DNA of 64,000 nt from the NCBI GenBank assembly GCA_964023285.1, contig CAXIEN010000093.1:2439739-2503738 (forward strand), written 5' to 3'. Source of the DNA: Larinioides sclopetarius. Taxonomy: Eukaryota. Positions within the stretch are counted from its first letter, which is position 1, and each line of letters starts with the position of its first letter. Both the position numbers and the translations under genes were made by a program. This document shows, one piece after another, positions 3,449 to 61,535 of this stretch. Below the pieces are notes generated by a model. That model did not search any database and was not told where the DNA came from. It was given only the letters and a program-made list of their open reading frames with translations.

Positions 3449-3597
3449 GTAGATCATGTGATATTTCTCAGAGCATCTGGATCTGATGGTGGTGAAGAAG
3501 TCAAAGGAGTAATCAAATCTTTTCTTCATAAATATCGAGAAGTGGTTAATTCTGAATTGCTATATACGGATGTGGATTTCCTTATGAGTAATTCCAG
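3449..3597 (+). CDS. Candidate upstream coding exon of the NWD1-like gene (VDHVIFLRASGSDGGEEVKGVIKSFLHKYREVVNSELLYTDVDFLMSNS). No ATG, so the true start is probably further upstream.
   Basis: Open frame bounded by a polypyrimidine tract and AG acceptor (tttattag|gt) and a GT donor (ccag|gtatgc). Its end phase of 2 is compatible with the next exon. Confidence 0.4.
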
Positions 3598-4465
3598 GTA
3601 TGCAAAAATATTTTATAAAAAGTAAATGTTATTTTAAAAGGTAAATGAGCCAAAGGTGACCGGTGTTTCTAAGGTAGCCAACTTTTCAAAAGTAGAATTA
3701 ATTTCATTTTTGATTATAATATGGTGCTTTTGCATTGTAAATGTCGTATCTGCAGTGCACTTGGCTGAATTGGAAGATATTACCTTGATCGGTCTCTATG
3801 ATATGCTTTAATTTCACTCTGGAAGAGTAACCGTTCTGATTTCCTGGTAAGAAAATATTTTATTCCACATGTGTTTAAAGTCTTAGAACTTTGATTTATT
3901 ATAATTTTTCGGGAAGCTTATTTCTTTCTCTTTAACCTTACTTCAATTCTAATAAATTGATCATATTAATAGTTTTAAGTTGTGCAAATGACAACCATAT
4001 GCTTGTTCCCAAAGACCACCTTAGAAAACAAATATAGAAATCTATGTTGTGAGGGCAATTATTAAAATTTTTACTTAAGTACCTGAAAAAATTAATTTGT
4101 GTTTATTGTTAAATTTATGATAATAAAAGTTATATATTTTTTATTTAATTATTGAATAGTGGTTACAGTTTTATTTTCTTATCAGAAAAATGTCATGAAA
4201 TCTAAAAGAAACTTTTGTTAATTCTTCGTTGAGTTATTGTTATAAGTAGTATAAAAATAAAGTATTGGACATATTGGGTATACTCTTCTACAAATAAAAA
4301 TAGTTTTCTAAGTATTTTTTCACGTTTAAAAAAAGACTTCATTACATGGGCAACCTTTGGAATACTTTGCGTCAATCCCCAGCTACAATTTTGAAATTGT
4401 ATTATGAAAACAATTAAATTGTATTTTTCAAAGAAACGTAATCATGATATGTGTTAGCTTATATT

Positions 4466-4700
4466 AACGTCCTGTTTTTAAGCAACACGAGGGCTATTTA
4501 GGAACGGACCTAGTAATTTTGAATCGTGATCGGGTAGTAAGGACGACACCTGGGCCGGCACCTCCTTTCCAAACTTCTGCACCACACCAGCGGTAGGACG
4601 TTTGGCACTACGTAAAAACGTGCAACAGACCCCATACACAGCGGATCTTCAGTGAAATCGAGTTTCGAACATGCGACCCTCCGGTCACGAGGTCGGTGTG
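4466..4700 (-). mobile_element. SINE-like repeat with a tRNA-type B-box (GGTCGCATGTTCGAAAC on the minus strand).
   Basis: GC-rich 235-bp block in an AT-rich intron. A partial copy lies in opposite orientation at 22985-23120 (~75% identical over …gtcgtcc..gatcacg.ttcaaaattac.agg.ccgt..taaa.agccctcgtgttgctt.aaaa..ggacgtta). Confidence 0.4.
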
Positions 4701-5110
4701 TGTTAGAGATAAGAGTAAACTTTTTATAAAAAAAGATAAATCAGCCACTCGCACTTTACCAGAAAGTTTAAAAAATTCTTCAAAACTTAACTATGGCCAT
4801 CTTTTGCTCACCTAATTTATTATAAGATTGAATTTCAGAAATAATGTGTATAAATATTATGTACTAATTTTCTAATTAGTTAATGGCGCTGTGATTATAT
4901 TTGTTCTGAAATGCTGTTTTATAAGTTTCTTCGTATTTTAACTAAAAATGTGGAAGGTGCTGTGAAATGAATACCTAAATAATGCGATAAAGGAGATTTT
5001 ACTGAATGAATTTTTAAAAAAAAGTTGTTTTTTTTTCAAAAAATAATTATTACATATTTTCCCTAACTTGACTGTTCATGAGCCGGGTGGAGTAGAGTTA
5101 AGGTCTTTGA

Positions 5111-5866
5111 TTTTTACATTCTTCTATATGTATATAAGAAGAAAGTATTGGAATCGTGACAATTTTGGACTTTCGGTTTTTGATTGGATTTACACGTCTT
5201 GGGAGGTCCTGAACACAATCTGTCTATTTTTACAAAATGTCTGTCTGTGTGTCCGTCTGTCTGCCTGTGTACTGTGTGTGACATAAACTTTGTGGCCACG
5301 CTACGCAAAAACTACTAGACAGAATCTCATGAAATTCTATATTCAGTTGCATTTTAACATAAATCGGTGCTGATTAGATCTTGGTGCAGATCTCTCAACA
5401 GGTAGCGCTGCTATTCCGTTTTTTATCGATTTTTTGTATCTGCTCTATATCAAAAACTAATAAACAAAACTTCATGAAATTTTATATTTAGTTGTGATCT
5501 TACATGAATTGATTCTGTTTAAATTTTGGTGTTGATCGCTTGATAGGTAACGCTGCTATTTTATATTTTTCACATTTTTTTACGTCCACTCTAGATTAAA
5601 AACTAATGGAAAATATTCATGAAATTTTATATTTAGTTTTACCCTAACATAAATTGATGCTGATTAGAGTTTGGTTTAAATAGCTCAACAAGTGGTGCTG
5701 CTATTTCATTTTTTCATAAATTTTGCTAATTTTCCAAATATTTGAGATTTGTTTATCTCTGTTTTAATGTTTTGAAATTGCATAAAATTTAATACACAAG
5801 ATGTATACTTTATGAATAGAATATACTTATATAGAAGAAAATTTCGTGCTGGCCACATCATACTAG
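5111..5866 (+). mobile_element. Non-autonomous repeat family 1, copy 1, with a Helitron-like 3' end. It contains three ~145-bp internal tandem subunits.
   Basis: Shares its head (tttttacattctt...gaagaaagtattggaatcg) and tail (gctggccacatcatactag|t, a short palindrome then CTAG then T) with the copy at 18822-19370. The internal repeat unit begins 'ttcatgaaatt[t/c]tatatt[t/c]agtt...' and occurs three times at 5330-5760. Confidence 0.6.
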
Positions 5867-6339
5867 TTTTATATCGAAGGATTGAATGTTGTAGGTCCGG
5901 TTGTAAAATGATGTTTATAGTCTAATATCCTCACGTTGGTCTGGTGCGGACGTTTAGAGAGTGAGATTCCGGCTTGCTTTATATTATCTCTGTTCAACGA
6001 CAGTCCGTCCCAAAATAGCCCGTATATGTAACTTCAAAAAAGAACACTAATATAAGATAAATGGGACTATTATAACTGCTCTAGTTGAGTATCTCAAAGC
6101 TTAAAAATAGCTGCTTGATTTTCTTTCCTCTGATTACGTTTTCCTATGATGAGAAAATTTGTTCTGATATGAATTTATCTAGATGATAAAATTTGCATTT
6201 TGTGTGGACCCTAAGTATTTTGTTAAATTGTATTTTTAGATTAAATTTAAAAGAATATTTAATTATACACCTTTGTATTTATTGTTTAATATTTCTTCCA
6301 TTCTGAATCTGTTCAAAGTGGACAGTTTTTACAGCGGCG

Positions 6340-6549: not shown

Positions 6550-7387
6550 CAGGATCACGACAAAACCGAGAAATCTGGGATTTCAGGGAAAAGTCAGGGA
6601 ATGTCATAAATCTAATCAGAGGAGAAAGTCTTTGAAATTCGGAGAAATATCTAAAAATGAAAATAATAATAATAATAATATGCCGATAAGAGCATTTTGT
6701 CCAAGCATATGCTGGATCGGTGATTCATTTTATAGGCAAAATAATTATTTGTTAATTGAGTTATTAATGCCCAGTATTATTTGTAATAATAAATGGAATT
6801 AAAAAATATTCATTTATAAAATCATTAGGATTTAATCAGAGCAATTGATTTCTCATGATTTGTTAAGGAGTAAAGATTTGAAGTGATATTTCGGCACTTC
6901 CTGTGATAAAATATGGTAAACTATATATTATTATGGATGTATAATTATATTATATTTATACTACAATATGTTATTTTGGTATTCATGCAAAGACTGTAAC
7001 TAGTTTTACCCCTGTTTATAAATTTTCAGAAAAGATTTTAATAACCCCTCTGTTAACTTAATCTAATTTGTGTAACAAAGAGTAGTTTTAACGTTTCGTG
7101 GATTTCTTGTGCTGTTTTGGGTGAAAAGTATTTTGTTAACATTGACAGTATCTTTTTCATAAAAAAAAATTAACGTACTGCTTAAAAAATTTTTTAGGAC
7201 ATCCATTTCATTTTTGGAAATTTAAACTGCATAAAAATATTTTTTTTCCTTATTTAATGTCTAGTAAAAATGTTTTTAATAATGCATATTCTGCATATAC
7301 AGTGATTCTGAACAGGGTGAAAGTCAGAGAGCTAATATAGTCAGTAATCGTAAACCAGGGAATTTTTTTTTTCTGTTGTCACCTTGT
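6550..7387. mobile_element. MITE family A copy with a divergent 5' terminus.
   Basis: ...tcagggaaaagtcaggga near the 5' end, and ...ttctgttgtcaccttgt at the 3' end. Collinear internally with the 28771 and 56606 copies. Confidence 0.5.
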
Positions 7388-10002: not shown

Positions 10003-10884
10003 ATTTTTACTTTCTTGTATAAAGGAAGTATTGTAATCGTCAAATTTGAACTCGAGATTTTGACGAATCTCCACGTTTTAGACCTCCCTGAGTCCGAAAA
10101 GCACAATTTGGGAATGCCGTCTGTCTGTAAACGCAATAGTTCAAACACTTATATAGTAATAGGGCTGAAATTTAGTATGTGGTTTCTGTACATAATTCGT
10201 AGGTTTCTATCAAATTTGGGGTAAAATCCCTCCACGGAAAGTATGTTTGTCTGTCTGCCCACGTTAAGGTGAATTCAATAACTTAAAAACTTTTGAAGAG
10301 CTCGATAGATAAAATTTGGTACACAGTTTTCTCATCTAAAATGTATGTCCGTATAAAATTTTGGGCCAAAATCGTCAAAGGGTTGATTATCAGTCGGTCT
10401 GTATAATCACATACTTATATAAATTATCTTAAGCCCTCTGGCTTAGATATATAAAATTTAGTATGACGTAAGCTATTATTAGTTGCAGACCTGTGGTAAA
10501 GTTTCGTCCCAATTGGTTAAAAAGAAGATGCCTTATTTGCGTATTCAATTTTATAATTCGTACGTCTTGTGAGCAGGCACGCTACATGATGAAAGGTATG
10601 CGTAATCACTTCCTAGGTGCTTTTTTTACTACTTGTCTCCTTTTTTCCCTTTAGACGAATTCTGAACATGGTTGGATAATTTTATCTCCGTTCGCTTTGT
10701 TGTTTTTGGGAGAATTATCATCATGAGAAATTAATTAGTGGCATTTTGGGTATATAGTATATTCGAAATGTTTATCCGGTTTATAGATTTTACAATTGAT
10801 GAAATATTTTCATCCATGCTAGAGTGTGAGAAACAGCACAATTTTGGGAAAATATACAAGAATAGGGCAGGCCACTTTCACTGG
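10003..10884 (+). mobile_element. Non-autonomous repeat family 2 (~880 bp), copy 1. Helitron-like 3' terminus.
   Basis: Head tttttactttcttgtataaaggaagtattgtaatcgtcaaa; tail gggcaggccactttcactgg|t. Homologous along its length to the copies at 26003, 27443 and 50651. Confidence 0.6.
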
Positions 10885-12169
10885 TTTTAATTATGGGTGA
10901 ACAGCCTTTGTTGCTATACATCCATAAAACTCGTATCTCCTTGAGATACCTGTTTAAAGATTGCAACTTTTCCTTTTTTCCCCATAATGTTAAAATGTGT
11001 ACCCGTTTTAACCCCACTAGTAAGATAAAACCTAGTAGTTTGATTTTTTTATATATATAAAAAAAATCATTGATCAAAAAGTAAAGAAACTGAATTTTTT
11101 AGAAATATATATTATACTATGATAAACGATGAATATTTTAATAAAATTTGACTGGATGTATGCCGAATATTTTATCTCCAAGAGACTTTCGAACAGTAGC
11201 TATCTTATGCTAGAACATTTTCCCATAATTATTGCAGATTCCATTTATCTTCCCAGATTCCAGCACAATAAATTGGCTGTACTCTCTGCTGGGACACTGG
11301 TGATAGATTTTAATTAACGTGGCGGCGATTGAATATTTAATTTAGTGGTTGTATTTGTTAAGAAATTTCTTGAAATTTATTTGAAACAAATATCTATTTC
11401 ATCTAGTCGTAAGGGAAAAAATCGCGTGCAATTTTGGTGGCATATTATTTTTAAATAAATGCTCATTTTAGATTTTCAGAAATATTTCTAAAATTACATA
11501 TTAGTTCGATCTCTAGAGGGTTATTATGTTTCAACTAGATGGAGTTTTTTTATTTGTTTCATGTGTTATTGACTTAAATTAATAAAGAGATAAATGAGAT
11601 AGATATTTTTTTAAACTACGGGATTTTTTGAAGGATTTTATTCGAAGTATTTCAGTATTTTACCTTACATATTTGTATAAATCTAATGTAATCTACTTAA
11701 GTGATGAATGGCGCAACATTTAAATGATAGTTTTTAATTCATTTGGGAATGTTGTGCCCAAAGTTGTGCTTATCATTGTGAAATGTCAATTCATAGAATG
11801 AAATCATAAAATTAGCAGTGAAACTTTCTAAATTTAAAAAAAAAGCAACCTTTTATTAGAAATGCTGGAGATAAAAAAAAACCTCTCTTGTTTTAGATTC
11901 GATATTTTGAAAATGCTTTCAGAATGCAGACGACCAAGCTGAATGAGTGAAAGTTATGGAAATTTTACTCTGAAGATTGTAGCCTAAAAAAGGATTTATT
12001 ATATATATATAGTTTTTTATATATTATTTCTGTTATATGTAATGAAAGTAATATGTTTACCAGTAGGTGTTCTAGTATATTACTTTTCATCCTATATAAG
12101 AACTACACATTTATATTTCAAAAGCAAATAAAAATCATCTCCTATTTTTGATTTGTGTTTCTTTCACAG

Positions 12170-12238
12170 CTTAGCTGATTCTGATAGTGCAGATGGTAAA
12201 GATGTTTACATTGGTGGGAATACTACACAGTTAGTCAA
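12170..12238 (+). CDS. Small coding exon of the NWD1-like gene (LADSDSADGKDVYIGGNTTQLV).
   Basis: Acceptor ctttcacag|c and donor caag|gtaagt. Phase-consistent with the flanking exons. Confidence 0.4.
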
Positions 12239-13965: not shown

Positions 13966-16900
13966 AATTTGAGTGGAATAATGCATACTGCATAAAAGAT
14001 CTTGGTTATAATGTATTGAAAAATATAATCACATAATACAATAAATTTTGCTAAACCCACGCTGAGAGAATGACAAATTCTATCGATGCCAAAAACAATT
14101 TACATAACTATGTGTTGCCATACAAAACAAATAAAATATGCAAGAGAAATGTAATCACACAATTATATATAATTCTAATACTTCCCTCTTGATTATATTT
14201 CTGAGTTCTACATCTAGTTTCTCGTGATATAAAGCTTTATTTAATGCACACTTTGTAAACATGTCCCCTATCTTGGACCTAAAAGGGTATATAAGGGAAA
14301 TCAATAACTTTTCCTTGACATCTTCACGAAGGAAAAAAAAATGTCTGAGTACTATATGTTTATTTCCCTCAGACATGAAATAGCTTTTAGTTAAAGAAAT
14401 AGCAAACTAATTGTCAGCATGTATACTTTGTGGAAAGCCTAAAAATTGTTCATTTACCATTTCTTGCAAGAAATTCTGCAACCCATTACCTCCTTTGCAG
14501 TATGGCACATAGAGAAATATTCAGCTTCAACCATTGAAAGAGCAGTTGTCCTCTGTTTCTTGCTGCTCCATGAAACAGCTCCACCTGCAAGCAATACCAC
14601 ATAGCCACTGAATGAACGCCTGTCAATCTTATTGTTTGCCCTGTCCGAATCATAAAATACTTCTAAGTTCTTTCCAGTCTTTGGAAAGTTAATTTCAAGT
14701 TCTTGGTCTTATGTAGATAAACGCAATATGAGCTGCACACCAGTCCAGTGTTCTTTACTGGGACAGCTGTTGAATTGACTCATGTATACTGTACCAAATC
14801 TAAATCAGGTCTTGTTCCTCCTGCCAAATACAAGAATCCTCCTATACCCTGTCTATAATTTAATTCTCCCTCAGCATTCAACATATTATTTTCAGTTGCA
14901 TGCACATATTTCATTCCTGGGTCTAGAGGTGTTGAAACTGCCTTGGCATTTTACATTCCAGTTGTTTCCTGTAGATCTTTACTGTAAGTATTTTGGTCCA
15001 TAGCCAGAGAACCATCCTTATTTTTGGTTACTTCAATTGACAGTAAATAATGTATTTCTCCTAATTCTTTGGCTTCAAAAACAGCTTTTATGTCATCTTT
15101 AAGTTTCTGAATTTTTGAGTATCTACTGGACATGACAAGCAAGTCGTCAACATAAACTCCTACAATTAGTTGTTTCCTTATTAAAGTAGACACATGGATC
15201 TGCTCTTGATCTTATCAAATTAACTGATTTCAGGAAACCATTGAGACATAAATTCCATTCTCTGCCTGACTGATGAAAACCATACAAACTTTTCTTCTCT
15301 AAACAAACTTCATTTGGTTTTCCATGCAGATTTAACCGTGGTTGTTCCATGAAAACAGTTTCATTCAATTTCCCATTTAGGTAGGCTGGTGGACTTGCCA
15401 ATCTTTCTCGACTGAAAATGCCAATAATGTTCTAAAAGAGTTCAGTTTTATCCCTGGACAAAAGGTTTCCTTGTAGTCTATTCCTTCCACTTGAGTATAT
15501 CCACGGGCATCTAGTCTTGCCTTGTACCTTTCCACTTGCCCATCTTTATCAAATTTTCTCTTGAACACCCATTTGCATTTTACTGTTTTTCTTCCTTTTG
15601 GCCTAGGTACTATGTCACAAGTTTCATTGAAGTGTTTTCTTGGGTTCACTTTGATCATCAGATTTGAATTTCTTTAACTGCCAAAAGGACTTACCATTTG
15701 TCACTGTTTATTTCTGGAAAATTTTCTCCAACCATGTCAGAGCCTTCCATGACATAACCTTTTGTCCATTTAGGAGCTGTGATTTGTCTTTTGGATCTAA
15801 TTCCTGTCAGCTCTGTTTCTTCTACCTTATCCTCTTGTGAATCTTCATCTACAGCTTCTGTCTCTTCACTTCTGGGTACATCTTCTTCTATAATTTGTTT
15901 AGAAGGGAATGCTATTACTTTCACTATCATAGAGGGGTTTTCTTCGAATACAACATCTCTAGAGCAAATTACAGTTCTTGTTTCTTTGATATGGATGTGG
16001 TACCTCTCGTCTCCATCATATCCAGCATGATATCCTCTTTTTGCCTTTCTGCCCATTTTTCTTCTTTTTTGAGCTGGGATGTGAGCATAACAAACTGATC
16101 CTATGATGCGCATATGTTTTGTTCTTGGTTTCTTCTTCATCCTCACTTCATAAAGAGCTAACATTAGGTACAGGGGATTTCCCTGTTCTGTTCAGTATGT
16201 AAATTGAAGCATTGATGAACTCTGCACATAAAAATGCTGGAAATTCTCCTTCTTTATTTGAATATTTCAGAGTTCTGGCCATCTCAACAATGGTTCGGTT
16301 CTCTCGTTCAACACTACCATTTTGCTGAGGTGTATAAGGAGCTAATAATCTTTGGGTGATTCCATGTTTTCTTCAAAAAAATTCTTACTACTTCACTATC
16401 GAATTCCCCTCGATTATCACTCATTATTTCTTTAATACCATGCCTATATTTTTGGTATGGGCTACAAAATCTTCAAGTACATCCTGTATTTCTAACTTTT
16501 GTTTCAAGAAAAACCATACCTAAATTTAGGGTAGTTATCTTTGAAGACAGCAAGGTATCTAAATTTTCGAAATGATTTATCAAATTGACCACATATATCT
16601 GTTGAGATCAATTCGCCTGCTTTTGTAGGTTTCTTTCTTATGCCAAATTTTAAACGGTGAGCTTTTCCGTAGACTCAAGCCTCACAAAGTTTTATATCAC
16701 GTTGTGAGGCTTTGTGTCACTTTTTACTTTGATATTTAATTCTCTTTCAATGATTGATTTTATATGTTTATCTTGGTGTCCATATCTTTCATGATAAAGC
16801 TGAAGGAATGAATCATAATCTACAGTCATGTTCACATCATTTTGGGTGTCTGGAACTAAACTTTTCATGACAGACTTGAAGAGACTACTTCCAGCATTTT

Positions 16901-18366
16901 ATATGTCATGTAGAATTATTTCACCGTCAATCTTTAAATAGCAATCTTTGTACGTTTATTCAAACACACTGTTCTGATTTCTATCTTGGGTTGCAAGAAC
17001 AGAAAATAAGTTTTTGCTGACTTCAGGTACTTACCAAACATTCTCTGGAGATTTGATTTGATCCTTTCCATTTACATTTATCATTATTTTGATTTTCCTT
17101 TTCCAATGGTTGGTAATTTTTTTCCCATTGACTACTGTGATGCTATGGCGAATTTCACAGTTTTGAAAATGAATAAAATAGCTATTATTATTGATAACAT
17201 GTTTTGAAGCTCCATTATCAATGAACCAGTCTTCAGTATTTATTTCTGCAGAAAATACTTCATTATCTACAGCTAAAATTGTCATGTTTATACCAGTGTT
17301 ATTACCTTTACTGGTATTTGGGTGGTTGGATTTGAGAGGTCTTCCATCTGCTATCCACACTTCCTACATGATCCAGTGTCTTTTTAGATGGCAATAATTA
17401 CACTTGCTATTTTTCTTGGTGGGAAATGGTTTGTATTTTGTATCTGGAATAGCAGCTAAAGCTTCTTGGACTTTAACTTCTGTGAATTCTAGATCTTTCT
17501 TTAAGTCTCTTTCATGTGTGCATAGGTGTGTTGTTAATTCTTCTAATGTTCTTTTTGCATCACTTAATAGTAACCAACTTGATTTGAAGGGGCGATAATT
17601 CAGGGGAAGAGTTTCTAATATCTTGCAAATTAACAACATTTCTGGAAGTCTTTTCATTTTTATTCTCGAGTCCACTATTCAAATTATTCCATAAATTTTT
17701 CAGTTTTGATAAATGATCTACCATATCACTCTCAGACCAGCTAAACTTAAAGAATTGCAAGCAAATACTATACAATTGGCTGTCTGATGAATCTTCGAAG
17801 AGCTTGCGCAACTCAAGCCATACATCTCTCGCAGAATTAAATCTCATCACCTTTTCCAATGTATCTTCAGTCATGGAGTTGGTTAGAACCATCATAGCAC
17901 TATTATTTGCTTTCTTAAAATCCTTCAAGTCTTTTATATATTTATCTTTGATATTCTCGGCATCTGCTTCATTCAGTTCTTCTAGCATCTCCAACTTTCC
18001 TTCAATGACATGCAAGGCATCTAAGTGTAATAATTCAATACGAATTTTATTCTATACTTCCATATGAGACAGTCTCTTTTGCTCGCTAATGGCTTAACTG
18101 GGATTTTACCCTGTTCCATTGTTAGAAGTTATTAGTCCTGATCTGATAAGAAATTTCACGAGCTATGGTCCAGTTAGGCTTATAAATAGCCTCTAACCTT
18201 TAATTTCCACTTTGCTTATAATCTTGGCACATTTAAAGTGCTGGACCCATAACCTATTAGAGTTAACTTGAGTGGAATAATATATACTGGATAAAAGATC
18301 TTCTTGGTTATAATATATTGAAAAAGATAATCACACAAATCATACAATTATATATAATTCTAATAA
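13966..18366 (-). mobile_element. Degenerate Ty1/copia-like LTR retrotransposon (gag-PR-IN-RT order) carrying frameshifts and stops. It sits inside intron 2 of the NWD1-like gene, antisense to it.
   Basis: Minus-strand ORFs encode gag with a CX2CX4H zinc knuckle (CNYCHLKRH) at 17364-18015 and a protease with the active site IDNGASKH at 17031-17360. An integrase is visible by hand translation (...LISTDICGQ...MSDNRGEF...PYTPQQNGSVERENRTIVE) at about 16200-16700. Copia-type RT (KWVFKRK...YKARLDARGY; YVDDLLV) is at 14951-15658. The element is flanked by direct repeats: 'ttgagtggaataat...aattatatataattctaata' at 13966-14187 (with a ~110-bp insert) and 18267-18366. Confidence 0.8.
14951..15658 (-). 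pseudogene. copia-type reverse transcriptase segment, split over three frames.
   Basis: ORFs 15377-15658, 15147-15401 and 14951-15193 together give RT motifs (LDARGY, LHGKPNE, SLYGFHQSGREW, VYVDDLLV). The frame changes between them show frameshifts. Confidence 0.75.
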
Positions 18367-19457: not shown

Positions 19458-19613
19458 ATTTATTGCTGAACGATCCAGTGGAGGACAGCTTACATATGTT
19501 GAAAACATTGACATAAAATACGATCTTAAGACTAAAGAGATTCCTAAAAAATTTAAAAAACTCAACGTTGTACCAGAACAGGAAAAACTTCCTGTGTTGA
19601 TGAAAGTTCCTAA
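19458..19613 (+). CDS. Coding exon of the NWD1-like gene (KFIAERSSGGQLTYVENIDIKYDLKTKEIPKKFKKLNVVPEQEKLPVLMKVPK).
   Basis: Acceptor cttttag|a and donor ctaa|gtaagt. 156 nt with no stops. Phase links exon 2 to the DUF4062 exon. Confidence 0.5.
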
Positions 19614-21346: not shown

Positions 21347-21523
21347 ATGGCATACAGTGCGCATTTTCATCTCATCCACATTCAAAGATATGCATTCTGA
21401 AAGAGATTTGTTGATTCGATTTGTCATTCCTGAGTTGAGAAAAAGAGCTGCATCAGTGTTTGTTAAAATTAATGAGGTGGATCTTCGTTGGGGCATCACT
21501 GAAACTGACTGTGCTTCTAAACG
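21347..21523 (+). CDS. NWD1: NWD1-like exon carrying the N-terminal half of the DUF4062-like domain (WHTVRIFISSTFKDMHSERDLLIRFVIPELRKRAASVFVKINEVDLRWGITETDCASKR).
   Basis: Motifs R-I-F-I-S-S-T-F ... E-R-D and V-D-L-R-W-G match the N-terminal domain of NWD1 proteins. Acceptor tttcag|a and donor aaacg|gtctgt, end phase 2. Confidence 0.75.
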
Positions 21524-38636: not shown

Positions 38637-38918
38637 GGTCTGAGACTGATATGTTCTGCTTCAGATACATCTTATGCTTTCAAAGTTTTAAATGAAAGAC
38701 ATACACATGGAGCTATTGTGCAAATGAACTTACCAGGAATTAATCAGTCAGATCGAGAAAATATTACAAGACAGTACTTACGGCTGTATGGAAAATCACT
38801 TGATGAAAGTTCCTTCAATAATCAAATGTTGCTGCTGGTAACTAAAAAGGATAGTGGTATACCTCTGTACATAAGAATAGCATGTGATTATCTCAGAAGT
38901 TATGCTACATTTGACAAT
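38637..38918 (+). CDS. NWD1: NACHT/NOD helical-region exon (GLRLICSASDTSYAFKVLNERHTHGAIVQMNLPGINQSDRENITRQYLRLYGKSLDESSFNNQMLLLVTKKDSGIPLYIRIACDYLRSYATFDN).
   Basis: 94-codon open frame. Acceptor gttttag|g and donor gacaat|gtaagt. The ...PLYI... sequence resembles the GxP/sensor region of STAND NTPases. Confidence 0.7.
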
Positions 38919-39094: not shown

Positions 39095-39227
39095 TTCATG
39101 TCCACTCTTCAGAGTTTACCATCATCTATGTCTTTACTTTTTCAAGAGATTATATTACAAATGGAAAATGAATATGGATCTGTCCTTGTCCAAACTATGT
39201 TAACTTTATTGTCTATCACAAAAGAAG
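39095..39227 (+). CDS. NWD1: NWD1-like exon (FMSTLQSLPSSMSLLFQEIILQMENEYGSVLVQTMLTLLSITKE).
   Basis: Acceptor ttttttag|t and donor aagaag|gtatat, phase 1 out. Confidence 0.6.
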
Positions 39228-41014: not shown

Positions 41015-41201
41015 GCTTGGACGATGCAGATATACATACTCTATTGAGTTTAGTTTCACTCGAAAAGGAGAAAAGGTCATTTCTCACTTTTAATGAAGCC
41101 ATTCATCAACTTAAAAAATTAGGTCCTGACAACATGCTATCTCAAGTTACATATTGTTCCCTAATGCATGCTGTTAGTTTGTTTGCTTTTGGTCATTGCA
41201 G
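41015..41201 (+). CDS. NWD1: NWD1-like exon (GLDDADIHTLLSLVSLEKEKRSFLTFNEAIHQLKKLGPDNMLSQVTYCSLMHAVSLFAFGHC).
   Basis: Acceptor ctctttag|g and donor tgcag|gtatgt. Phase in 1, out 2. Confidence 0.6.
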
Positions 41202-42915: not shown

Positions 42916-43025
42916 ATTCAAGAAATTCTCTTTGGTTGGCTCAGAATTTGAAAAAGCTGTTAGAAAGTATTATTTGAATAAGAATTATTCGAATTTCTCT
43001 CAGTACATGCATCGCATCTTAGCAG
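42916..43025 (+). CDS. NWD1: NWD1-like exon (RFKKFSLVGSEFEKAVRKYYLNKNYSNFSQYMHRILA).
   Basis: Acceptor atatttaag|a and donor agcag|gtaaga. This is the only arrangement that bridges phase 2 from exon 13 to phase 1 into exon 15. Confidence 0.5.
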
Positions 43026-45516: not shown

Positions 45517-45826
45517 CATACTATTTCATCACCTGTGACTCTGAAGGCAATGCTACGTGGAAAGGGCGATCTGCATCAGCTTTTAGAGGACTAATTTTCC
45601 ATTTGTTTTACGGAAACTGTTTCCTAGAGCTAGCTAATTATTTGTGTTGTCTCCAATTCCTGGAAACTGCATTCAGTGTGGAAGCATCAGATTTACTTTT
45701 AGAGTATTATGCTTTGCTCTTTGAAGAACGTCGAACAGGAAGCAGTGAAGCTTTGAGAAAAATTGATTTTTCTTTATTGTCATCGTTTTATGACTTTGTA
45801 GCTCGGAATTTACACATTTTTCAGAT
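45517..45826 (+). CDS. NWD1: NWD1-like helical linker exon (AYYFITCDSEGNATWKGRSASAFRGLIFHLFYGNCFLELANYLCCLQFLETAFSVEASDLLLEYYALLFEERRTGSSEALRKIDFSLLSSFYDFVARNLHIFQ).
   Basis: Acceptor ccttttaaag|ca and donor cagat|gtaagt. 103-codon open frame in AT-rich DNA. Confidence 0.55.
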
Positions 45827-46767: not shown

Positions 46768-46927
46768 ATACCCTGACCTGGTTATGCAACAAGCATTAAA
46801 TGAGCCATCAGATTCACTAGTAAAATTAAATCTTCAGAAGGATTATCTTTATAAATCGCCTGTTGTAGAGTGCCTTTCTGTTTCTGACAATGATCCTAGG
46901 ATTGCAACTTTGAGAGGATTTTTTAAG
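46768..46927 (+). CDS. NWD1: NWD1-like exon (IYPDLVMQQALNEPSDSLVKLNLQKDYLYKSPVVECLSVSDNDPRIATLRGFFK).
   Basis: Acceptor tttttcaatag|a and donor tttaag|gtataa. Confidence 0.55.
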
Positions 46928-50167: not shown

Positions 50168-50263
50168 AATATTACTTCTGCTTCTTGTCAGAAAGTTTCA
50201 TCACATGCATTTTTAGGAAGTGAAGATGGTTATTTAAAAGTTCTAGATTTTCCATCCAAAAAA
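50168..50263 (+). CDS. NWD1: First WD-repeat exon (NITSASCQKVSSHAFLGSEDGYLKVLDFPSKK).
   Basis: Acceptor aatttcag|a and donor aaaaaa|gtaaga. 32 codons. Confidence 0.55.
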
Positions 50264-50650: not shown

Positions 50651-51511
50651 TTTTTACTTTCTTGTATGGAGAAAGTATTGTAATCGTCAAAAAATTCAAA
50701 CTTGAGATTTTGATGAATCTTCACGTTTTAGACCTCCCTGAGTTCAAAAAACGCAATTTGGAACTATGTTTGTTTGTAAACATGATAACTCAAGAACCGT
50801 TATAACTACAAGGCTGAAATTTGGTTTGTCGTCTTTGTACATAATTTCTAGGATTCTATCAAATTTTGGACAAAATTCGTCTGTGGAAGTATGGCAGTCT
50901 GTTTTTCTGCATTCATATGAACAAAATAACTCAAAAACTTGAACAGCTAGATAGATAAAGGTTGATACACAATTTTCTCATCAGAAATGTATGTCCGTAT
51001 AGAATTTTGGGTCAAATCCTCCAAAGGGTTCACTACCAGTCAGTCTACATAATCACATATTTGTGAAATTTATAACTCCTAAACCCTTTAATCTAGATAT
51101 ATAAAATTTAGTATGATGTATGCTAATATGAATTGCAAACCTGTGTAAAAGTTTTGCTCCATTCGGTTCTATAGAAGTGTTTTAATTGCAAATCCCATTT
51201 TATAATTTACGCACATGCATAATTTTGCAGTTTTGTGCATAAAGGGAAGGGTTGCTAGAAACACTTCCTAGGTGCTTTTTTCTTTCTTTTTGGCTTTTCT
51301 TTTCTCCCTTTTGGAAAATTCTGATAGTGGTTTTATTATTTAAGTTATATGGAAATTAATGGCATTTGGGGTGTAAAGCAGATTCAAAATTTTTATTCCG
51401 TTTATAGTTTTTACAGTCGGTGAAATTTTTAAAAATTCGTGCTGGAGGATAGGAAACGACACAATTCAGGAGAACTATACAAGAAAATTTAGGAAAGACC
51501 CCTTCCACTGG
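50651..51511 (+). mobile_element. Family 2, copy 4, in the intron between exons 17 and 18.
   Basis: Head tttttactttcttgtatggagaaagtattgtaatcgtc; tail aggaaagaccccttccactgg|t. Confidence 0.55.
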
Positions 51512-52119
51512 TTAGTGTATGTCTTGGTTGCAGATTTCGTTTTGCTAGTTCTGCACTTGAACATGTTCCAGCATAAACTCTGAATTATTTTGTATTCACC
51601 AAAAACTCGACTGGAATCGGTTGAATGTGAGTGGTCCTTGAATCTCGCTTACAGATTCTAACACTCCCCATTCACACACCTGCATGTTAATTGCTTGTTA
51701 ACAATTTTTAATCATAGCAGGGAGATAAGATTAAATGCACTTTATTTTTTAAAAGTTCTTAATAAATCGGCACTGATCATTGTAAAAGTGCTTAAACTAA
51801 TGTGGTATATTTTTAGTAACTCTTTATAATGCACCTCATACTTGACATTAAGAAGCTAAACTTCACTATTAGACTGAAAGCATATCATAATGGATTTGAA
51901 TGCTGGGGATTATAAATACATTTGTATGATTTTTATGTGGGTCTTTTTCCCATTTTGGAAATAGCCAAGTTTCTTTCTTTTTTCCTTTTCAAAACATTAA
52001 TTGTGATAACAACCACTGTTGCCATTGTTTGATTGTCAAATGTATACGAATTGTATTTAGGTAAAGATTTTATTGTTAAGTTTCAAAACTTTCAAATATT
52101 TCATTTCTTTGTTTTATAG

Positions 52120-52244
52120 ATTATTAGAAGTGTTAAAAGTCATTCATCTGCAATAACCTTTATATGTTCTGCTGGAAAAGATAGAATATGTACTGCTTCA
52201 ACAGATACTACCCTAAGCATTTGGAGTACTGTTGACTACAGCCG
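52120..52244 (+). CDS. NWD1: WD40 exon (IIRSVKSHSSAITFICSAGKDRICTASTDTTLSIWSTVDYS).
   Basis: WD-repeat signature (...S.D.T..IW). Acceptor gttttatag|a and donor agccg|gtatga. Confidence 0.6.
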
Positions 52245-55690: not shown

Positions 55691-55837
55691 AATTTCTGTT
55701 CTGAAAGGACATAAGCACATTGTTTCTTGCTGCTGTGCTGATGCTTCGAGTACTATTTTACTTTCATCTTCATGGGATAATTCTGTTCGTCTGTGGAGTC
55801 TCAGAGATGGAAGTTCTATTTCAGTCATTGGTTTTGG
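55691..55837 (+). CDS. NWD1: WD40 exon (RISVLKGHKHIVSCCCADASSTILLSSSWDNSVRLWSLRDGSSISVIGF).
   Basis: GH...SWDNSVRLW is a canonical WD40 repeat. Acceptor tttttgtag|a and donor tttgg|gtaaac. The ORF track lists this region on the minus strand only; the real coding frame is on the plus strand. Confidence 0.65.
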
Positions 55838-55997
55838 GTAAACTTCATTTTATAATTATAAAATTTCATTGTATTTTCTATGTTTAAGAAGAAAGGAACA
55901 AATACTTCAATTTTAGCTGAATCTGTGCTGTCAAGCAATATCTAAATGCTTCTTTAAAATAATAATTTGTTGAACGTTTTACATTTTCTTTTTTTAG

Positions 55998-56106
55998 ATG
56001 TCCTGTAAATTGCATTGACCACCATCCTACAAAACAGCAAGTTGCCTGTGGTTTATGGAGTGGAAATGTTGAAATATGGGATACAGTTTCTCTAGAAAAA
56101 CAGCTT
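55998..56106 (+). CDS. NWD1: WD40 exon (GCPVNCIDHHPTKQQVACGLWSGNVEIWDTVSLEKQL).
   Basis: Acceptor tttttag|a and donor cagctt|gtcagt. Contains the EIWD motif. Confidence 0.55.
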
Positions 56107-56398
56107 GTCAGTTGAAATTTTCTTTCATTATCACTCTCTTTCATTTTCTTCAGTATTTTAAATGTTACATATCTGAATAAATTATTGTTAAACTATTTTT
56201 TTTCTGATTAAGTTTTTGTATTCAAATAACTTTACCAAACAACTATTCAAATTACTAAATACAGCTGATCCACATCAATAAATTCTTTTTGTATTAGTAA
56301 TAATTTATTTTATTTTTTTGATTTTATAAAGTTGTTTGTGTTGTCTTTCATGATTCATAATTAAATGTTATTCAATAATTATCTTTTTATTCTTTCAG

Positions 56399-56518
56399 AA
56401 ACTATCAAGCAGTTATTCTTCAGTTAAATCAATAGTTTATACATTAGATGGTTTGAACTTAATTACATCATATATGAATTCTGATGTGACTATTTGGTCA
56501 TCTGAGCAAGGACTAAAG
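56399..56518 (+). CDS. NWD1: WD40 exon (KLSSSYSSVKSIVYTLDGLNLITSYMNSDVTIWSSEQGLK).
   Basis: Acceptor ttctttcag|a and donor ctaaag|gtttga. 40 codons. Confidence 0.55.
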
Positions 56519-56605: not shown

Positions 56606-57348
56606 CAGGGTGACGACAGAACCGGGAAATCAGGGATTTCAGGGAAAAGTCAGGGATTTTTATGGATCTGGAAAAATCAGGGAGAAGTCAGGGAAATTCA
56701 TAAAAATTCCTAAAAATCAGGGGAAATTGCAGATAGGAGCATTTTACACCAAATATGTGCTCGATCAATGGTTAATTTAAAAAGTTATAAGCAAACATTA
56801 ATTATTTGTTATTTTGAGTTATCTATAAATTACTATCTTATGTCTAATATTATTTGTAATAGTAAATGGAATTTTTGTAATTTCTCTAATAAAATATTCT
56901 AAAATATATATTATAAAGCATGTATTATTATTATACTTTTTTTGTTGCAATATGTTATTCTCATACTCAAGCAAAGACCATTAATTAGAAAAAAAAATCT
57001 TAACAACCTTTATTCTTAATATAATTAACTTCTATTGCAAAGTATAATGTTAAAATTGTCAGCATTTTTTACTTATAATAAATATTAATATGCTGTTTTA
57101 AGATTTTTTTAGAATGTTCATTCCCTTTTTTTTAAAAAAAAAAAACTAAATTTCAAAAAATGTTTATTTTTTTCTTATTGAATGACTGGTAAATGTGTTT
57201 TTATAGTATATTGTGCATATGCGGTTATTCTGAGTAGGAAGAAAGCGAGGAAACTAATAAAATTCAGTAACCATAAATCAGGGAAATTTTATTAGTTTAG
57301 TCTGGGAAGTCAGGGAAATTTGTTTCAAAGATTCTGTAGTCACCCTGT
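56606..57348. mobile_element. MITE family A, full-length copy (~740 bp), with TIR CAGGGTGAC...GTCACCCTG.
   Basis: Terminal inverted repeat of about 15 bp (cagggtgacgacagaa / ttctgtagtcaccctg). Flanked by TACAA on both sides, a candidate 5-bp TSD. Internal 'tcagggaaa' sub-repeats. Confidence 0.6.
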
Positions 57349-58704: not shown

Positions 58705-58803
58705 ATTTCATGTCTTAAAGGACATGTTTTACCTGTTAAATCAATCAGTTATTCACCTGAAGGGGATAAGATTATCAGTGGAAGTGATGACTGCACTCTC
58801 AAG
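58705..58803 (+). CDS. NWD1: WD40 exon (ISCLKGHVLPVKSISYSPEGDKIISGSDDCTLK).
   Basis: GH...SGSDD.TLK(VW) is a textbook WD40 repeat. Acceptor ttttcttag|a and donor ctcaag|gtaagt. Confidence 0.65.
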
Positions 58804-58926
58804 GTAAGTTTTCAGTTATCCTAAGGTTTATCAAATTTTAAATATTTTAATTAATAGTTTTCTATTTGAATTTCAAACTACATTGGAAAATTATTATATT
58901 GCTTTACAAAATCCTTTTCTCCATAG

Positions 58927-59071
58927 GTTTGGCCTGCTGGATCTGGATTGTCTGTTCGTACCTTTTCTGAATGTAAATTCTTTCCTATTAGTGTTTTGGA
59001 AATCATATCTCCAAATCATTTAGCAATTGGGTATCAAAATTCTGACATCTGGGTTATGGATATGGACACTG
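58927..59071 (+). CDS. NWD1: WD40 exon (VWPAGSGLSVRTFSECKFFPISVLEIISPNHLAIGYQNSDIWVMDMDT).
   Basis: Acceptor ctccatag|g and donor cactg|gtaagt. Confidence 0.6.
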
Positions 59072-59222
59072 GTAAGTGTTGGAACATTTCATGATAAATT
59101 GCTTCTACTGAATCTTGTCATATGTTTAGTGTAAATTATGTTATGAATTTCAAGGGACTCATTCATTATTTCACTCATTCCTTTAAGATATTGTTTCAAT
59201 GCTATTAATTAATTCGTTACAG

Positions 59223-59368
59223 GTTTTGTTACGACAAAGATGTCACTAGAAGCTGATTTAGTTTCATGTTTTAGTAGATTTGACCCACTTACCTATGCAT
59301 CCAAAAACATCAAGGAAAATTGGGTTGATTTATCTGTAGTATTTGGAACCAAGTCTGGTAAAATAATG
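59223..59368 (+). CDS. NWD1: Last recognisable NWD1-like exon (GFVTTKMSLEADLVSCFSRFDPLTYASKNIKENWVDLSVVFGTKSGKIM). It either splices at atg|gtgaga or reads through to TGA at 59381-59383 (..KIMVRLF*).
   Basis: Acceptor cgttacag|g. The frame is open to 59383. No further WD-like exons found downstream in the window. Confidence 0.45.
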
Positions 59369-61535
59369 GTGAGACTTTTCTGATTCTAAATATAATCTTT
59401 AAAAGTACACTTTTTAAAAAAATAATTAAAAACAGTTTTAACACAATAATGCATGCGGAAAATGTACTTTTATGTTTTTCTTAGACTGTCACTGGAGCAC
59501 GGGTCACGTAAAAGTATGTGTATAGTAGATTTTTGCTAGAAAGTGGGTAACCTATAAATACGATGCACGATTGTCTGGTGTTTGTGTTGCTAGGCAACGA
59601 TTTGCATTGTTTCTTTTCAGAAATCGAGTTTGTCAGGTTACTTTGTCTTCTGTCCAGTTACTAGCTCCTGAATGTAGGAGTTTTGTAAATTTGAAGTTTC
59701 TTTTTATTATTATTAATTACAACCTTAATAAAATGAGCCATTGTGATAAAGATAGTAATTAAGAAATATGTGCTGATGGATTATTGGATTTTTCATATGA
59801 TTGTAATATTGAAAACCAAGATAACAAAGAAAGCAACGATAATGATGTTTTTCCATGTTCTAGAATGTTCACCCGAAGAACTATTTCTAGCAGTTCTGAA
59901 ACAAATTCTGATGAAGAAGTAAATGAATGGTCTTCGACTGACAACCCACCAGTAGGGCTAGGCCGATTTTCGATTTATCGAAAAAAAAATTGATATTTCA
60001 AAAGATATCGATTTTTCGATTTCGATATTTTAAAATATTGATATATCGAAGATCGAATCGTCTTACCTCAAAGGCAATCTAGTCTCGATCAATCGTCTCA
60101 CTTTTGTCTCAGTTGAATCGTCTCAAATCGTTCATCATTGTTAAAAGTACGAAACCCATCTTTTTTGCCCTCCAGTGATTCTCAGAAAAAGGGGACGACC
60201 ACCCATTTTAGTACAGGAAGCTGTTCCTCTCCCCCTTTTCGTGCGCTCCTCGTTTCAAAACACAAAACCTTATCGACAATCTGAACTCGTCTACAAGTAA
60301 TTTGTTAGAGTGCTTGATTGTCGATTACCGCTAATTATTCGGATGCTTTGATCGCCAAATCTCGACTTGAGCCGTCCCGTTGTGCATTTATTAAGCTGGT
60401 GAAAAATAATCGGGCTAACAGAACATGCTTTGATTTTTACATGATTTCAATGCTTAATCTTGATTGTGGGCGATAAATTGCCAAACCTTAAATTATATCA
60501 TTTCTAAACAGAAATTTGCTTACTTTACTGAAGTTTTAATATTTGTTTTCTTTCCGTATTACATTTTATTTCGTTTCTTTTTTCCCTATACTGTATTTCT
60601 TCGTATTATTTTAAAAACATTTTAAAAAATTATATTTCGTTTACTGATTATCTCTGCTCTGTTTTTAAACTTAAATTATTAATCTTGTGCATTCTGCCTA
60701 TATTTTTTTTCTGTAAAATTTCTAAACAGTTTTTTTATTTCATTAAATTAATCGTATTTAAACTCAGTGTCAAATATTATTTCATACGATTAATTGTAAT
60801 TGAGTAAAAAATTAAATATATCTTTAGCTTAACTTTTATTAAATTGTGTAAACTTTCAGGATTTAATTATACTTAATTGAAACAAATGTATCAGCTGTTC
60901 TTTTTTTTTAATCCATTATCTAAAAGTCATGAAAACAATATATTATGTGAAAAATTTAACGTGACAAACTGTAATGGTTTCTAAAATTTAAAAAAAATGT
61001 TAAAAAGTTATATATGTATTTAAATTACTAGAATTCAAAAAATGCTACTGAAAAGACAAAATGCGCCATGAGATTTGACTTATAAAATAAAAATTTATAA
61101 ATTGCGAAGAAATATAGTTAGAGGAAATGTACTATACAAATATTAGATTTGGTGAAATTTTATGTTTTGGAATAAAATGTAGATAGATTTGGATTACTTC
61201 TGCATTATTTTTTCAATAGTTTGAAGCTTTTGTTTAATAAACGAGTAAAATATGTATACGAGACATATTTATATATGCAATGCAACTATGCTTATGCGAT
61301 AACATTTTTCAATATTTTTTTAGATAAACCTTTTAACTATAAATTCAACGTAACGTAAAAAGAAATTTGAAATTTATGGAATAATTCGTAACCATCCTAA
61401 AATTGCTACTAAATTCATTTTAAAAGTAAGCAAATAATATGATACATAATTTGCATAAATAACTAAAATGAATAATTTATACAACTAAATAATGTACTTT
61501 CGACATTTTAACAGACAAACTTTATTTATTCCAAA

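What the first reader, a model, noticed from the sequence alone, without database searches (positions are those of the whole stretch)
3449..59383. One ~56-kb, 24-exon gene encoding a DUF4062-NACHT-WD40 (NWD1-like) STAND NTPase fills the window
I found 24 exons by reading for open frames bounded by polypyrimidine/AG acceptors and GT donors. Every junction is phase-compatible, giving a continuous protein of about 1230 aa. The order is: an N-terminal DUF4062-like module (RIFISSTF..ERD..VDLRWG..ELCLLEAQKSDLFIGILGERYG, exons 4-5); then GNPGSGKTT (Walker A, exon 8) and FVLVIDGLD (Walker B, exon 10); then at least 7 WD40-type exons (GH...SWDNSVRLW, SGSDDCTLKVW, SIWS, EIWD, TIWS). This is the domain order of vertebrate NWD1, a poorly characterised STAND/NLR-like protein, and of the large lineage-expanded NACHT families of basal metazoans. 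No ATG-containing first exon was found, so the 5' end probably lies upstream of the window. The ORF track alone does not reveal the gene because the exons are short; one is listed only on the wrong strand and others are fused to intronic read-through.
Basis: partly seen in the sequence, partly recalled or inferred. Interest (0 to 1): 0.6.

Follow-up and report, generated by a model that had tools for sequence, protein, structure and literature searches.

The report
Middle part of spider TEP1 gene
The 24-exon gene is real, but it is the middle 1,224 codons of the ordinary spider orthologue of TEP1, the vault/telomerase-associated NADase–NACHT–WD40 protein, not an NWD1-like gene, and both of its ends lie outside the window.

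Summary
On the + strand, 24 exons between 3449 and 59368 are all flanked by AG/GT and all phase-compatible. They give an uninterrupted 1,224-aa reading frame with DUF4062, a NACHT domain (Walker A GNPGSGKTT, Walker B FVLVIDGLD) and about eight WD40 blades.

The interpretation needs two corrections.

1. The gene is TEP1, not NWD1.
- Every named eukaryotic hit is "telomerase protein component 1".
- Two Araneus ventricosus TEP1 fragments match at 92–95 % amino-acid identity, and the window is collinear with that locus at 70–85 % nucleotide identity.
- Exons 1–3 encode the C-terminal half of the vWA-like DUF5920 region that lies between TROVE and DUF4062 in TEP1 homologues.
- In A. ventricosus the TROVE-encoding exons lie upstream on the same strand, and the junction matches in phase.
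- The DUF4062 domain matches the crystal structure of the human TEP1 TIR-like NADase (E = 1e-53), and the catalytic Glu is conserved.

2. The stop at 59381–59383 is intron read-through. The conserved donor is ATG|GTGAGA at 59368|59369. The A. ventricosus orthologue continues for 592 more residues, including the TEP1-specific second and C-terminal propellers, and none of that is in the window.

dN/dS is 0.20, so the gene is under purifying selection. This is a known gene. Its interest is low.

The parts
3449..3597 (+). Exon 1 of the window (aa 1-50): VDHVIFLRASG..., in the vWA-like DUF5920 region of TEP1. It is an internal exon with no ATG.
   Evidence: Acceptor ttttattag|GTA is identical in A. 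ventricosus. tblastn of P0001 gives 90 % identity, E = 5e-24. DUF5920 Pfam hit.
12170..12238 (+). Exon 2 (aa 50-73): SLADSDSADGKDVYIGGNTTQLVK.
   Evidence: AG/GT boundaries and phase 2. P0001 hit at 87.5 % identity.
19458..19613 (+). Exon 3 (aa 73-125): FIAERSSGGQLTYVENID..., the end of DUF5920.
   Evidence: tblastn hits from spider, Lingula, barnacle and other TEP1 proteins. HMM hit E = 6e-8.
21347..21523 (+). Exon 4 (aa 125-184): first part of the DUF4062 / TIR-like NADase domain (RIFISSTFKDMH, VDLRWG).
   Evidence: Pfam DUF4062 E = 8e-14. PDB 11gz_A, human TEP1, E = 9.7e-54.
31463..31702 (+). Exon 5 (aa 184-264): core of the NADase domain. The GERYG Arg (= human R976) is at 31521-31535. The catalytic Glu E237 (= human E1008, motif SITELEM) is at 31620-31622.
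   Evidence: Alignment to 11gz_A and residue mapping. Catalytic role of E1008 from bioRxiv 10.64898/2026.05.01.722283 and 10.64898/2026.09.04.749371.
33530..33643 (+). Exon 6 (aa 264-302): NADase domain, continued.
34929..35046 (+). Exon 7 (aa 302-341): end of the NADase domain.
35172..35351 (+). Exon 8 (aa 342-401): start of the NACHT domain, with Walker A GNPGSGKTT at 35319-35345.
   Evidence: Pfam NACHT, AAA_22 and NPHP3_N hits.
36145..36299 (+). Exon 9 (aa 402-453): NACHT.
   Evidence: P0001 hit at 92 % identity. Boundaries.
37944..38088 (+). Exon 10 (aa 453-501): NACHT Walker B FVLVIDGLD at 38008-38034.
   Evidence: 94 % nucleotide identity to the A. ventricosus locus.
38637..38918 (+). 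Exon 11 (aa 502-595): C-terminal part of the NACHT module.
   Evidence: tblastn hits from four invertebrate TEP1 proteins, E = 1e-10 to 4e-16.
39095..39227 (+). Exon 12 (aa 596-640): winged-helix region, with a weak HTH_NWD1 match.
   Evidence: Pfam HTH_NWD1 at 18 bits, below the cut-off of 27. Lingula TEP1 tblastn hit.
41015..41201 (+). Exon 13 (aa 640-702). The donor is CAG|GTATGT at 41201|41202.
   Evidence: The donor and the open frame are conserved in A. ventricosus. The weaker upstream GT is not conserved.
42916..43025 (+). Exon 14 (aa 702-739).
45517..45826 (+). Exon 15 (aa 739-842): helical (APAF-1-like) domain.
   Evidence: P0121 hit at 91 % identity, E = 6e-55. Octopus TEP1 hit.
46768..46927 (+). 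Exon 16 (aa 842-895): linker (QQALNEPSDS) and start of the first WD40 propeller.
50168..50263 (+). Exon 17 (aa 896-927): WD40 blade.
52120..52244 (+). Exon 18 (aa 928-969): WD40 blade (SIWS). The acceptor AG is the AG of the in-frame TAG at 52117-52119.
55691..55837 (+). Exon 19 (aa 969-1018): WD40 blade (GHKHIV...SWDNSVRLW).
55998..56106 (+). Exon 20 (aa 1018-1054): WD40 blade (EIWD).
56399..56518 (+). Exon 21 (aa 1055-1094): WD40 blade (TIWS).
58705..58803 (+). Exon 22 (aa 1095-1127): WD40 blade (GHVLPV...SGSDDCTLK).
58927..59071 (+). Exon 23 (aa 1128-1176): begins with VW, which completes SGSDDCTLKVW.
59223..59368 (+). Exon 24 (aa 1176-1224): ends ...GTKSGKIM with donor ATG|GTGAGA. It is not the last exon of the gene.
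   Evidence: The same donor, and the same read-through TGA, are present in A. ventricosus, where the annotated protein continues VGNLRTSE....
59369..59383 (+). Start of intron 24.

Best explanation
The window holds the central 56 kb (24 internal exons, 1,224 codons) of the single-copy orthologue of TEP1 (telomerase protein component 1, the minor vault protein) in an araneid spider closely related to Araneus ventricosus.

The part encoded here has six modules:
- the C-terminal half of the vWA-like DUF5920 module that follows the TROVE RNA-binding domain (exons 1-3);
- the DUF4062 TIR-like NAD+ hydrolase domain, with the catalytic Glu conserved (exons 4-7);
- a NACHT P-loop NTPase with intact Walker A and B motifs (exons 8-11);
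- a winged-helix region (exons 12-13);
- a helical region (exons 14-16);
- the first WD40 propeller (exons 16-24).

The N-terminal TEP1 repeats, the TROVE domain and the first half of the vWA-like module (about 770 aa) are encoded upstream of the window. Two further propellers (about 590 aa) are encoded downstream. Together this gives a protein of about 2,590 aa.

By orthology (inferred, not shown for spiders), the TROVE/vWA part binds vault or telomerase RNA. [quoted passage not shown]
For: Gene model:
- 24 GT-AG exons, all in phase, with no stop.
- dN/dS is 0.20 and amino-acid identity is 91 % against A. ventricosus over 959 codons.

Identity as TEP1:
- The top hits are TEP1 from A. ventricosus (92 % and 95 % identity), Lingula (2e-109), Octopus and a barnacle.
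- The window is collinear with A. ventricosus contig BGPR01000017.1 through exons and introns.
- PDB 11gz_A, "Telomerase protein component 1", matches at E = 9.7e-54 and 43 % identity. E1008, R954 and R976 are conserved, and R908 is replaced by K.
- Pfam finds DUF4062, NACHT and WD40.
- DUF5920 scores 31.8 bits over profile positions 12-201 when the A. ventricosus upstream exons are joined to window exons 1-3.

TROVE domain in the orthologue:
- P0266 (TROVE, 290 bits) is on the same contig and strand.
- Its last genuine exon ends ...HVILREK|GTAAGT in phase 0, about 31.6 kb upstream of the VDHV exon.

3' continuation:
- P0121 carries 592 residues after KSGKIM, with Beta-prop_TEP1_2nd (93 bits) and Beta-prop_TEP1_C (75 bits).
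- None of these residues is encoded in the window.

Function:
- Human TEP1 DUF4062 is an NADase that depends on E1008 and is active in vaults.
Against: - The TROVE exons and the last ~590 codons were not seen in this genome. They are inferred from the syntenic locus of a related species.
- No transcript data were available, so the splice junctions are predicted, though most are supported by cross-species conservation.
- DUF5920 alone on the window's exons 1-3 scores 24.3 bits, just under Pfam's cut-off of 27.
- HTH_NWD1 is sub-threshold.
- One substrate-site arginine (human R908) is Lys here.
- Window 59423-64000 has no counterpart in the A. ventricosus locus, where this intron is about 400 bp. 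A rearrangement or assembly break after exon 24 cannot be excluded.
Confidence: 0.95

Rival explanations
1. The gene would be an NWD1/NWD2-like (or lineage-expanded) DUF4062-NACHT-WD40 STAND NTPase whose DUF4062 sits near the N-terminus.
For: - The core order DUF4062-NACHT-WD40 is shared with NWD1/NWD2.
- There is a weak HTH_NWD1 match at 18 bits.
Against: - No NWD1 or NWD2 protein appears among the best 120 hits. All named eukaryotic hits are TEP1.
- 125 aa of TEP1-type vWA/DUF5920 sequence precede DUF4062 in the same reading frame.
- The syntenic orthologue has TROVE upstream and TEP1-specific propellers downstream.
- HTH_NWD1 also hits bona fide TEP1 homologues.
- The locus has one collinear counterpart in A. 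ventricosus, not a gene array.
Confidence: 0.02
2. The gene is a truncated TEP1. In this species, or in a short isoform, it would really end at the TGA at 59381-59383 through retention of intron 24, or because a >=4.6-kb insertion has cut off the downstream exons. The product would have a single WD40 propeller.
For: - The in-frame TGA 12 nt after the donor is present in both species.
- The next exon is about 400 bp away in A. ventricosus but is absent from the 4.6 kb that follow here, and that stretch has no similarity to the A. ventricosus locus.
Against: - The donor ATG|GTGAGA is a strong consensus site and is conserved.
- The open frame would stop inside the last blade.
- Introns of 7-10 kb that contain repeats are common in this gene, so a 4.6-kb insertion does not imply loss.
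- The upstream exons show dN/dS of 0.20.
Confidence: 0.04
3. The exon chain is a chance product of reading a low-GC sequence, or the gene is a decayed pseudogene.
For: The exons are short, and most do not appear in a plain ORF list.
Against: - 24 of 24 exons have AG/GT and compatible phases, with no stop in 1,224 codons.
- Per-exon tblastn E-values reach 1e-55.
- Coding identity to A. ventricosus is 91 %, against 70-85 % in introns, and dN/dS is 0.20.
Confidence: 0.005

Closest known systems
TEP1 (telomerase protein component 1, the minor vault protein), e.g. human TEP1; annotated as 'Telomerase protein component 1' in Araneus ventricosus, Nephila pilipes and Trichonephila clavipes
   Same: - Same module order over the part seen: vWA-like DUF5920, DUF4062 TIR-like NADase, NACHT, winged-helix/helical region, WD40.
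- 43 % identity to the human TEP1 TIR crystal structure, with the catalytic Glu and two of three active-site Arg residues conserved.
- 92-95 % identity and a collinear locus against A. ventricosus TEP1.
- The estimated full length of about 2,590 aa is close to human TEP1, which is 2,627 aa from my own recollection.
   Different: - Only the middle 1,224 aa are in the window.
- Human R908 is Lys here.
- The DUF5920 and HTH_NWD1 profile scores are weak in spiders.
- No functional data exist for any arthropod TEP1, as far as my searches showed.
NWD1 / NWD2 (vertebrate NACHT and WD repeat proteins)
   Same: They share DUF4062 next to NACHT, an APAF-1-like helical domain and WD40 repeats.
   Different: - They have no TROVE or vWA/DUF5920 module upstream.
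- Purified human NWD1 and NWD2 showed no NADase activity, whereas TEP1 did.
- No NWD1/2 protein appears among the hits.
Bacterial DUF4062(NIR)-NACHT/STAND anti-phage proteins (Avs-type, Swarozyc, Vulcan/Vesta)
   Same: - The DUF4062-NACHT core matches at 26-36 % identity over about 90 % of the query, with E down to 8e-83.
- The catalytic Glu and the NAD+-depleting chemistry are the same.
   Different: - The bacterial proteins have TPR or other sensor repeats, or none, and no TROVE/vWA module.
- They are intron-less prokaryotic genes.
- This locus is an intron-rich animal gene.

Membership tests
TEP1 | TROVE RNA-binding domain in the N-terminal third | not testable with these tools
   - The domain is not in the window: there were no hits in 1-3448.
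- In the syntenic A. ventricosus locus, P0266 carries TROVE (290 bits) on the same strand. Its last real exon ends in phase 0 about 31.6 kb upstream of the exon equivalent to window exon 1.
- So the feature is met in the orthologue and inferred here.
TEP1 | vWA-like DUF5920 segment between TROVE and DUF4062 | tested here: met
   - Exons 1-3 alone score 24.3 bits (E = 2.7e-5) on profile positions 108-201, just under the cut-off of 27.
- Joined to the A. ventricosus upstream exons they score 31.8 bits over positions 12-201.
- tblastn of Lingula, barnacle and other TEP1 proteins hits exons 1 and 3.
TEP1 | DUF4062 / TIR-like NADase domain with the catalytic Glu (human E1008) | tested here: met
   - Pfam DUF4062 scores 52 bits.
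- PDB 11gz_A matches at E = 9.7e-54.
- E237 aligns with E1008. R954 and R976 are conserved, and R908 is replaced by K.
TEP1 | NACHT NTPase with Walker A and B motifs | tested here: met
   GNPGSGKTT and FVLVIDGLD are present. Pfam NACHT scores 30.0 bits against a cut-off of 26.7.
TEP1 | Long C-terminal WD40 region, including the TEP1-specific second and C-terminal propellers | tested here: inconclusive
   - The window encodes about eight blades, that is, the first propeller.
- The TEP1_2nd (93 bits) and TEP1_C (75 bits) domains are found only in the A. ventricosus continuation, P0121 residues 541-1077, which lies beyond the window.
TEP1 | Closest relatives are TEP1 orthologues, and the locus is syntenic | tested here: met
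TEP1 | Association with vault particles and vault or telomerase RNA; NADase activity | not testable with these tools
   These need biochemistry. They are shown for human TEP1 only.
NWD1/NWD2 | DUF4062 at the N-terminus, with no TROVE or vWA module before it | tested here: not met
   125 in-frame residues of TEP1-type vWA/DUF5920 precede DUF4062, and exon 1 is an internal exon with no ATG.
NWD1/NWD2 | Closest homologues are NWD1/NWD2 | tested here: not met
   None appears among the best 120 hits. All named eukaryotic hits are TEP1.
NWD1/NWD2 | NACHT + HTH_NWD1 winged helix + WD40 | tested here: inconclusive
   NACHT and WD40 are met. HTH_NWD1 scores 18 bits, below the cut-off of 27. This core is shared with TEP1, so it does not discriminate between the two families.

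The most novel reading that the evidence does not exclude
In this species the >=4.6-kb foreign segment after exon 24 (59423-64000, absent from the A. ventricosus intron of about 400 bp) may have disconnected the downstream exons. Alternatively, intron-24 retention may be used. Either way the gene would produce a short TEP1 that ends ...KSGKIMVRLF* with a single WD40 propeller. That would be a natural truncation separating the TROVE-NADase-NACHT core from the two distal propellers.
Probability: 0.04. Interest if true: 0.25.

Novelty: already known. Interest (0 to 1): 0.1.

Why it matters
It matters little beyond annotation. The result gives a clean exon model for the central part of a spider TEP1. 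The published A. ventricosus annotation splits this gene into at least four separate gene models, and the exon model shows how they join.

Two 2026 preprints report that the DUF4062 domain of TEP1 is a TIR-like NADase that is active in vaults. Against that background, it is mildly useful to know that the catalytic Glu and most active-site residues are conserved, and under purifying selection, in a chelicerate. That conservation is expected for an orthologue.

Tried and rejected
1. Possible extra upstream exon at 2655-2840 (frame 3).
- When prepended, it raised the DUF5920 score from 24 to 39 bits.
- I rejected it because it has no GT donor.
- Its sequence (NRV.TE..FQGKVRE...KYVLD) is a copy of an interspersed repeat also seen at 6550-6800 and 56606-56873.
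- It also lies in a segment (2570-3024) that is missing from the collinear A. ventricosus intron.

2. My first donor choices for exon 13 (41180, GTTTGC, or GCT|GTTAGT) were replaced by 41201|GTATGT after comparison with A. ventricosus.

3. An apparent phase clash between exons 17 and 18 disappeared once I saw that the acceptor AG is part of the in-frame TAG at 52117-52119.

4. An HMM search of six-frame segments for TROVE or early DUF5920 found nothing in window 1-3448, and nothing in the 10 kb upstream of the A. ventricosus P0001 model. The TROVE exons are further upstream.

5. A PDB sequence search with the NACHT-helical region gave no hit.

6. Rfam (gathering thresholds) and ARAGORN found no RNA genes in the window.

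7. Pfam found nothing for ORFs at 44056-44379(-), 59763-59990(+) and 63500-63835(-).

Full report
**What the window is**

The window is AT-rich eukaryotic DNA (27-33 % GC) with short exons and long, repeat-filled introns. SGSDDCTLKVW is the one exception, because an intron splits it.

**Gene model**

I located open segments, used homologues as guides and read every boundary at the nucleotide level. The result is 24 exons:

| Exons | Coordinates |
|---|---|
| 1-6 | 3449-3597, 12170-12238, 19458-19613, 21347-21523, 31463-31702, 33530-33643 |
| 7-12 | 34929-35046, 35172-35351, 36145-36299, 37944-38088, 38637-38918, 39095-39227 |
| 13-18 | 41015-41201, 42916-43025, 45517-45826, 46768-46927, 50168-50263, 52120-52244 |
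| 19-24 | 55691-55837, 55998-56106, 56399-56518, 58705-58803, 58927-59071, 59223-59368 |

- Each exon is preceded by a pyrimidine tract and AG and followed by GT.
- All 23 junctions are in phase.
- The 3,672 nt translate into 1,224 aa without a stop.

**Domains**

| Region | Exons | Evidence |
|---|---|---|
| DUF4062 | 4-7 (Pfam match at aa 130-238) | Pfam, 52 bits |
| NACHT and related P-loop families | 8-11 | NACHT 30.0 bits against a cut-off of 26.7; Walker A GNPGSGKTT at 35319-35345, Walker B FVLVIDGLD at 38008-38034 |
| Winged helix | 12-13 | HTH_NWD1, sub-threshold at 18 bits |
| WD40 propeller, about eight blades | 16-24 | WD40 77 bits and many propeller families |

**It is TEP1, not NWD1**

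- A search with the DUF4062-NACHT part returned "Telomerase protein component 1 [Araneus ventricosus]" (P0001, 92 % identity) as best hit. TEP1 from Lingula (2e-109), Octopus and a barnacle followed, and then bacterial DUF4062-NACHT proteins. No NWD1 or NWD2 protein appeared among the best 120 hits.
- The C-terminal half returned a second A. ventricosus TEP1 fragment (P0121, 95 % identity).
- In Lingula, Octopus and other TEP1 proteins this stretch is the DUF5920 region between TROVE and DUF4062.
- On the window's exons 1-3 alone, DUF5920 scores 24.3 bits, covering only the C-terminal half of the profile. Joined to the preceding A. ventricosus exons it scores 31.8 bits over nearly the whole profile.
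- The DUF4062 domain matches PDB 11gz_A, "Telomerase protein component 1", at E = 9.7e-54 and 43 % identity.

**Synteny and the missing ends**

The A. ventricosus loci (contig BGPR01000017.1) are collinear with the window through exons and introns at 70-85 % nucleotide identity. The window therefore comes from a related araneid species.

The 5' side:
- A profile search with TEP1 TROVE regions found P0266, an A. ventricosus "Telomerase protein component 1" with a TROVE domain, on the same contig.
- It lies upstream on the same strand.
- Its last genuine exon ends ...HVILREK|GTAAGT in phase 0, about 31.6 kb before the exon equivalent to window exon 1, whose acceptor is identical in the two species.
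- An LRR gene sits antisense in that intron.
- None of P0266 is encoded in the window.

The 3' side:
- P0121 continues after ...GTKSGKIM for 592 residues (VGNLRTSE...). That stretch contains Beta-prop_TEP1_2nd (93 bits) and Beta-prop_TEP1_C (75 bits).
- The donor ATG|GTGAGA and the read-through TGA 12 nt later are present in both species.
- None of the 592 residues is encoded in 59369-64000.
- That stretch has no similarity to the A. ventricosus locus, where the intron is about 400 bp. The remaining exons must lie beyond the window, behind a lineage-specific insertion of at least 4.6 kb.
- The summed length is about 771 + 1,224 + 592 = 2,587 aa.

**Is the gene functional?**

Against A. ventricosus, 959 aligned codons show 91 % amino-acid identity, dS = 0.27, dN = 0.054 and dN/dS = 0.20. 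This indicates purifying selection and argues against a pseudogene.

**Mechanism**

Two 2026 preprints show that DUF4062 is a TIR-like NADase.
- The activity depends on E1008 and rises with protein concentration.
- It is detected in reconstituted vaults, whereas purified NWD1, NWD2 and NPHP3 were inactive (10.64898/2026.05.01.722283; 10.64898/2026.09.04.749371).

To number the PDB chain I took its residue 1 as human residue 894. This places all four named residues on the correct residue types.

| Human TEP1 residue | Residue in the window |
|---|---|
| E1008 | E237 (nt 31620-31622) |
| R954 | Arg, conserved |
| R976 | Arg, conserved |
| R908 | Lys |

The remaining steps are inferred from orthology and from general knowledge of TEP1 and STAND proteins. 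They are RNA binding by TROVE/vWA, nucleotide-dependent oligomerisation by the NACHT domain, and partner or ligand binding by the WD40 repeats.

**Surroundings**

- No Rfam family or tRNA gene was found.
- The introns carry a degenerate Ty1/copia element on the minus strand, at about 14.9-18.0 kb, with gag, Pol_BBD, integrase SH3 and RVT_2 matches.
- They also carry several interspersed repeat families, an element flanked by inverted repeats, and a pair of 263-bp direct repeats.

**Verdict**

The gene is the ordinary TEP1 orthologue of a spider and is already annotated, in pieces, in related species. Its interest is low.

Noticed in passing
window 14951-18015, minus strand (intron 2): There is a degenerate Ty1/copia-type LTR retrotransposon here. 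Separate frameshifted ORFs match Retrotran_gag_2, Pol_BBD, the retroviral SH3-like integrase domain and RVT_2 (180 bits). The self-comparison found no flanking LTR pair.
   Followed up: partly
window 10003-10887, 26002-26896, 27441-28289, 50651-51513: An interspersed repeat of about 900 bp occurs in four copies, all in the same orientation inside TEP1 introns, at 68-77 % identity. One copy is also in the A. ventricosus locus (merged coordinates 90346-90731). Its family is unknown.
   Followed up: partly
window 2655-2840 (also 6550-6800, 28801-28995, 56606-56873): A short interspersed repeat has an open frame (NRV.TE..FQGKVRE...KYVLD) that looks like an exon. It spuriously raised the DUF5920 Pfam score from 24 to 39 bits when prepended to exon 1. 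It has no donor site, and the segment around it (2570-3024) is absent from the collinear A. ventricosus intron.
   Followed up: yes
window 43602-45153 (intron 14): Inverted repeats of about 150 bp (43602-43751 against 45153-44994, 79 % identity) flank a 1.55-kb segment with several ORFs. This is probably a decayed DNA transposon. Pfam found nothing for the 107-aa ORF inside it.
   Followed up: partly
window 59423-64000: This is 4.6 kb after exon 24 with no similarity to the 106-kb A. ventricosus TEP1 locus, where the corresponding intron is about 400 bp. It contains a 263-bp direct repeat pair (61542-61803 and 62714-62972, 93.5 % identity, 1.17 kb apart), which may be the LTRs of a small element. 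It is either a lineage-specific insertion or an assembly join.
   Followed up: partly
L003 / L001 / L002 (A. ventricosus BGPR01000017.1, about 3,434,765-3,619,827): The published A. ventricosus annotation splits one TEP1 gene of about 165 kb into at least four models: P0266 (TROVE), P0001, an unnamed 250-aa model, and P0121. P0266 and P0001 have artificial ends made from intron read-through, and P0001 and P0121 have artificial starts. A 1,236-aa LRR gene lies antisense inside the 31.6-kb intron before the exon equivalent to window exon 1.
   Followed up: partly
window 21384-21386 (K138 in the 1,224-aa model): Human TEP1 R908 coordinates the active-site sulphate, and its Ala mutant has reduced NADase activity. 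In this spider and in A. ventricosus the residue is Lys (STFKDMH). R954, R976 and the catalytic E1008 are conserved.
   Followed up: partly
window 55884-56144, minus strand: The only ORF of at least 70 aa listed over exon 20 is an 86-aa antisense ORF. Nothing suggests that this ORF is a gene.
   Followed up: yes
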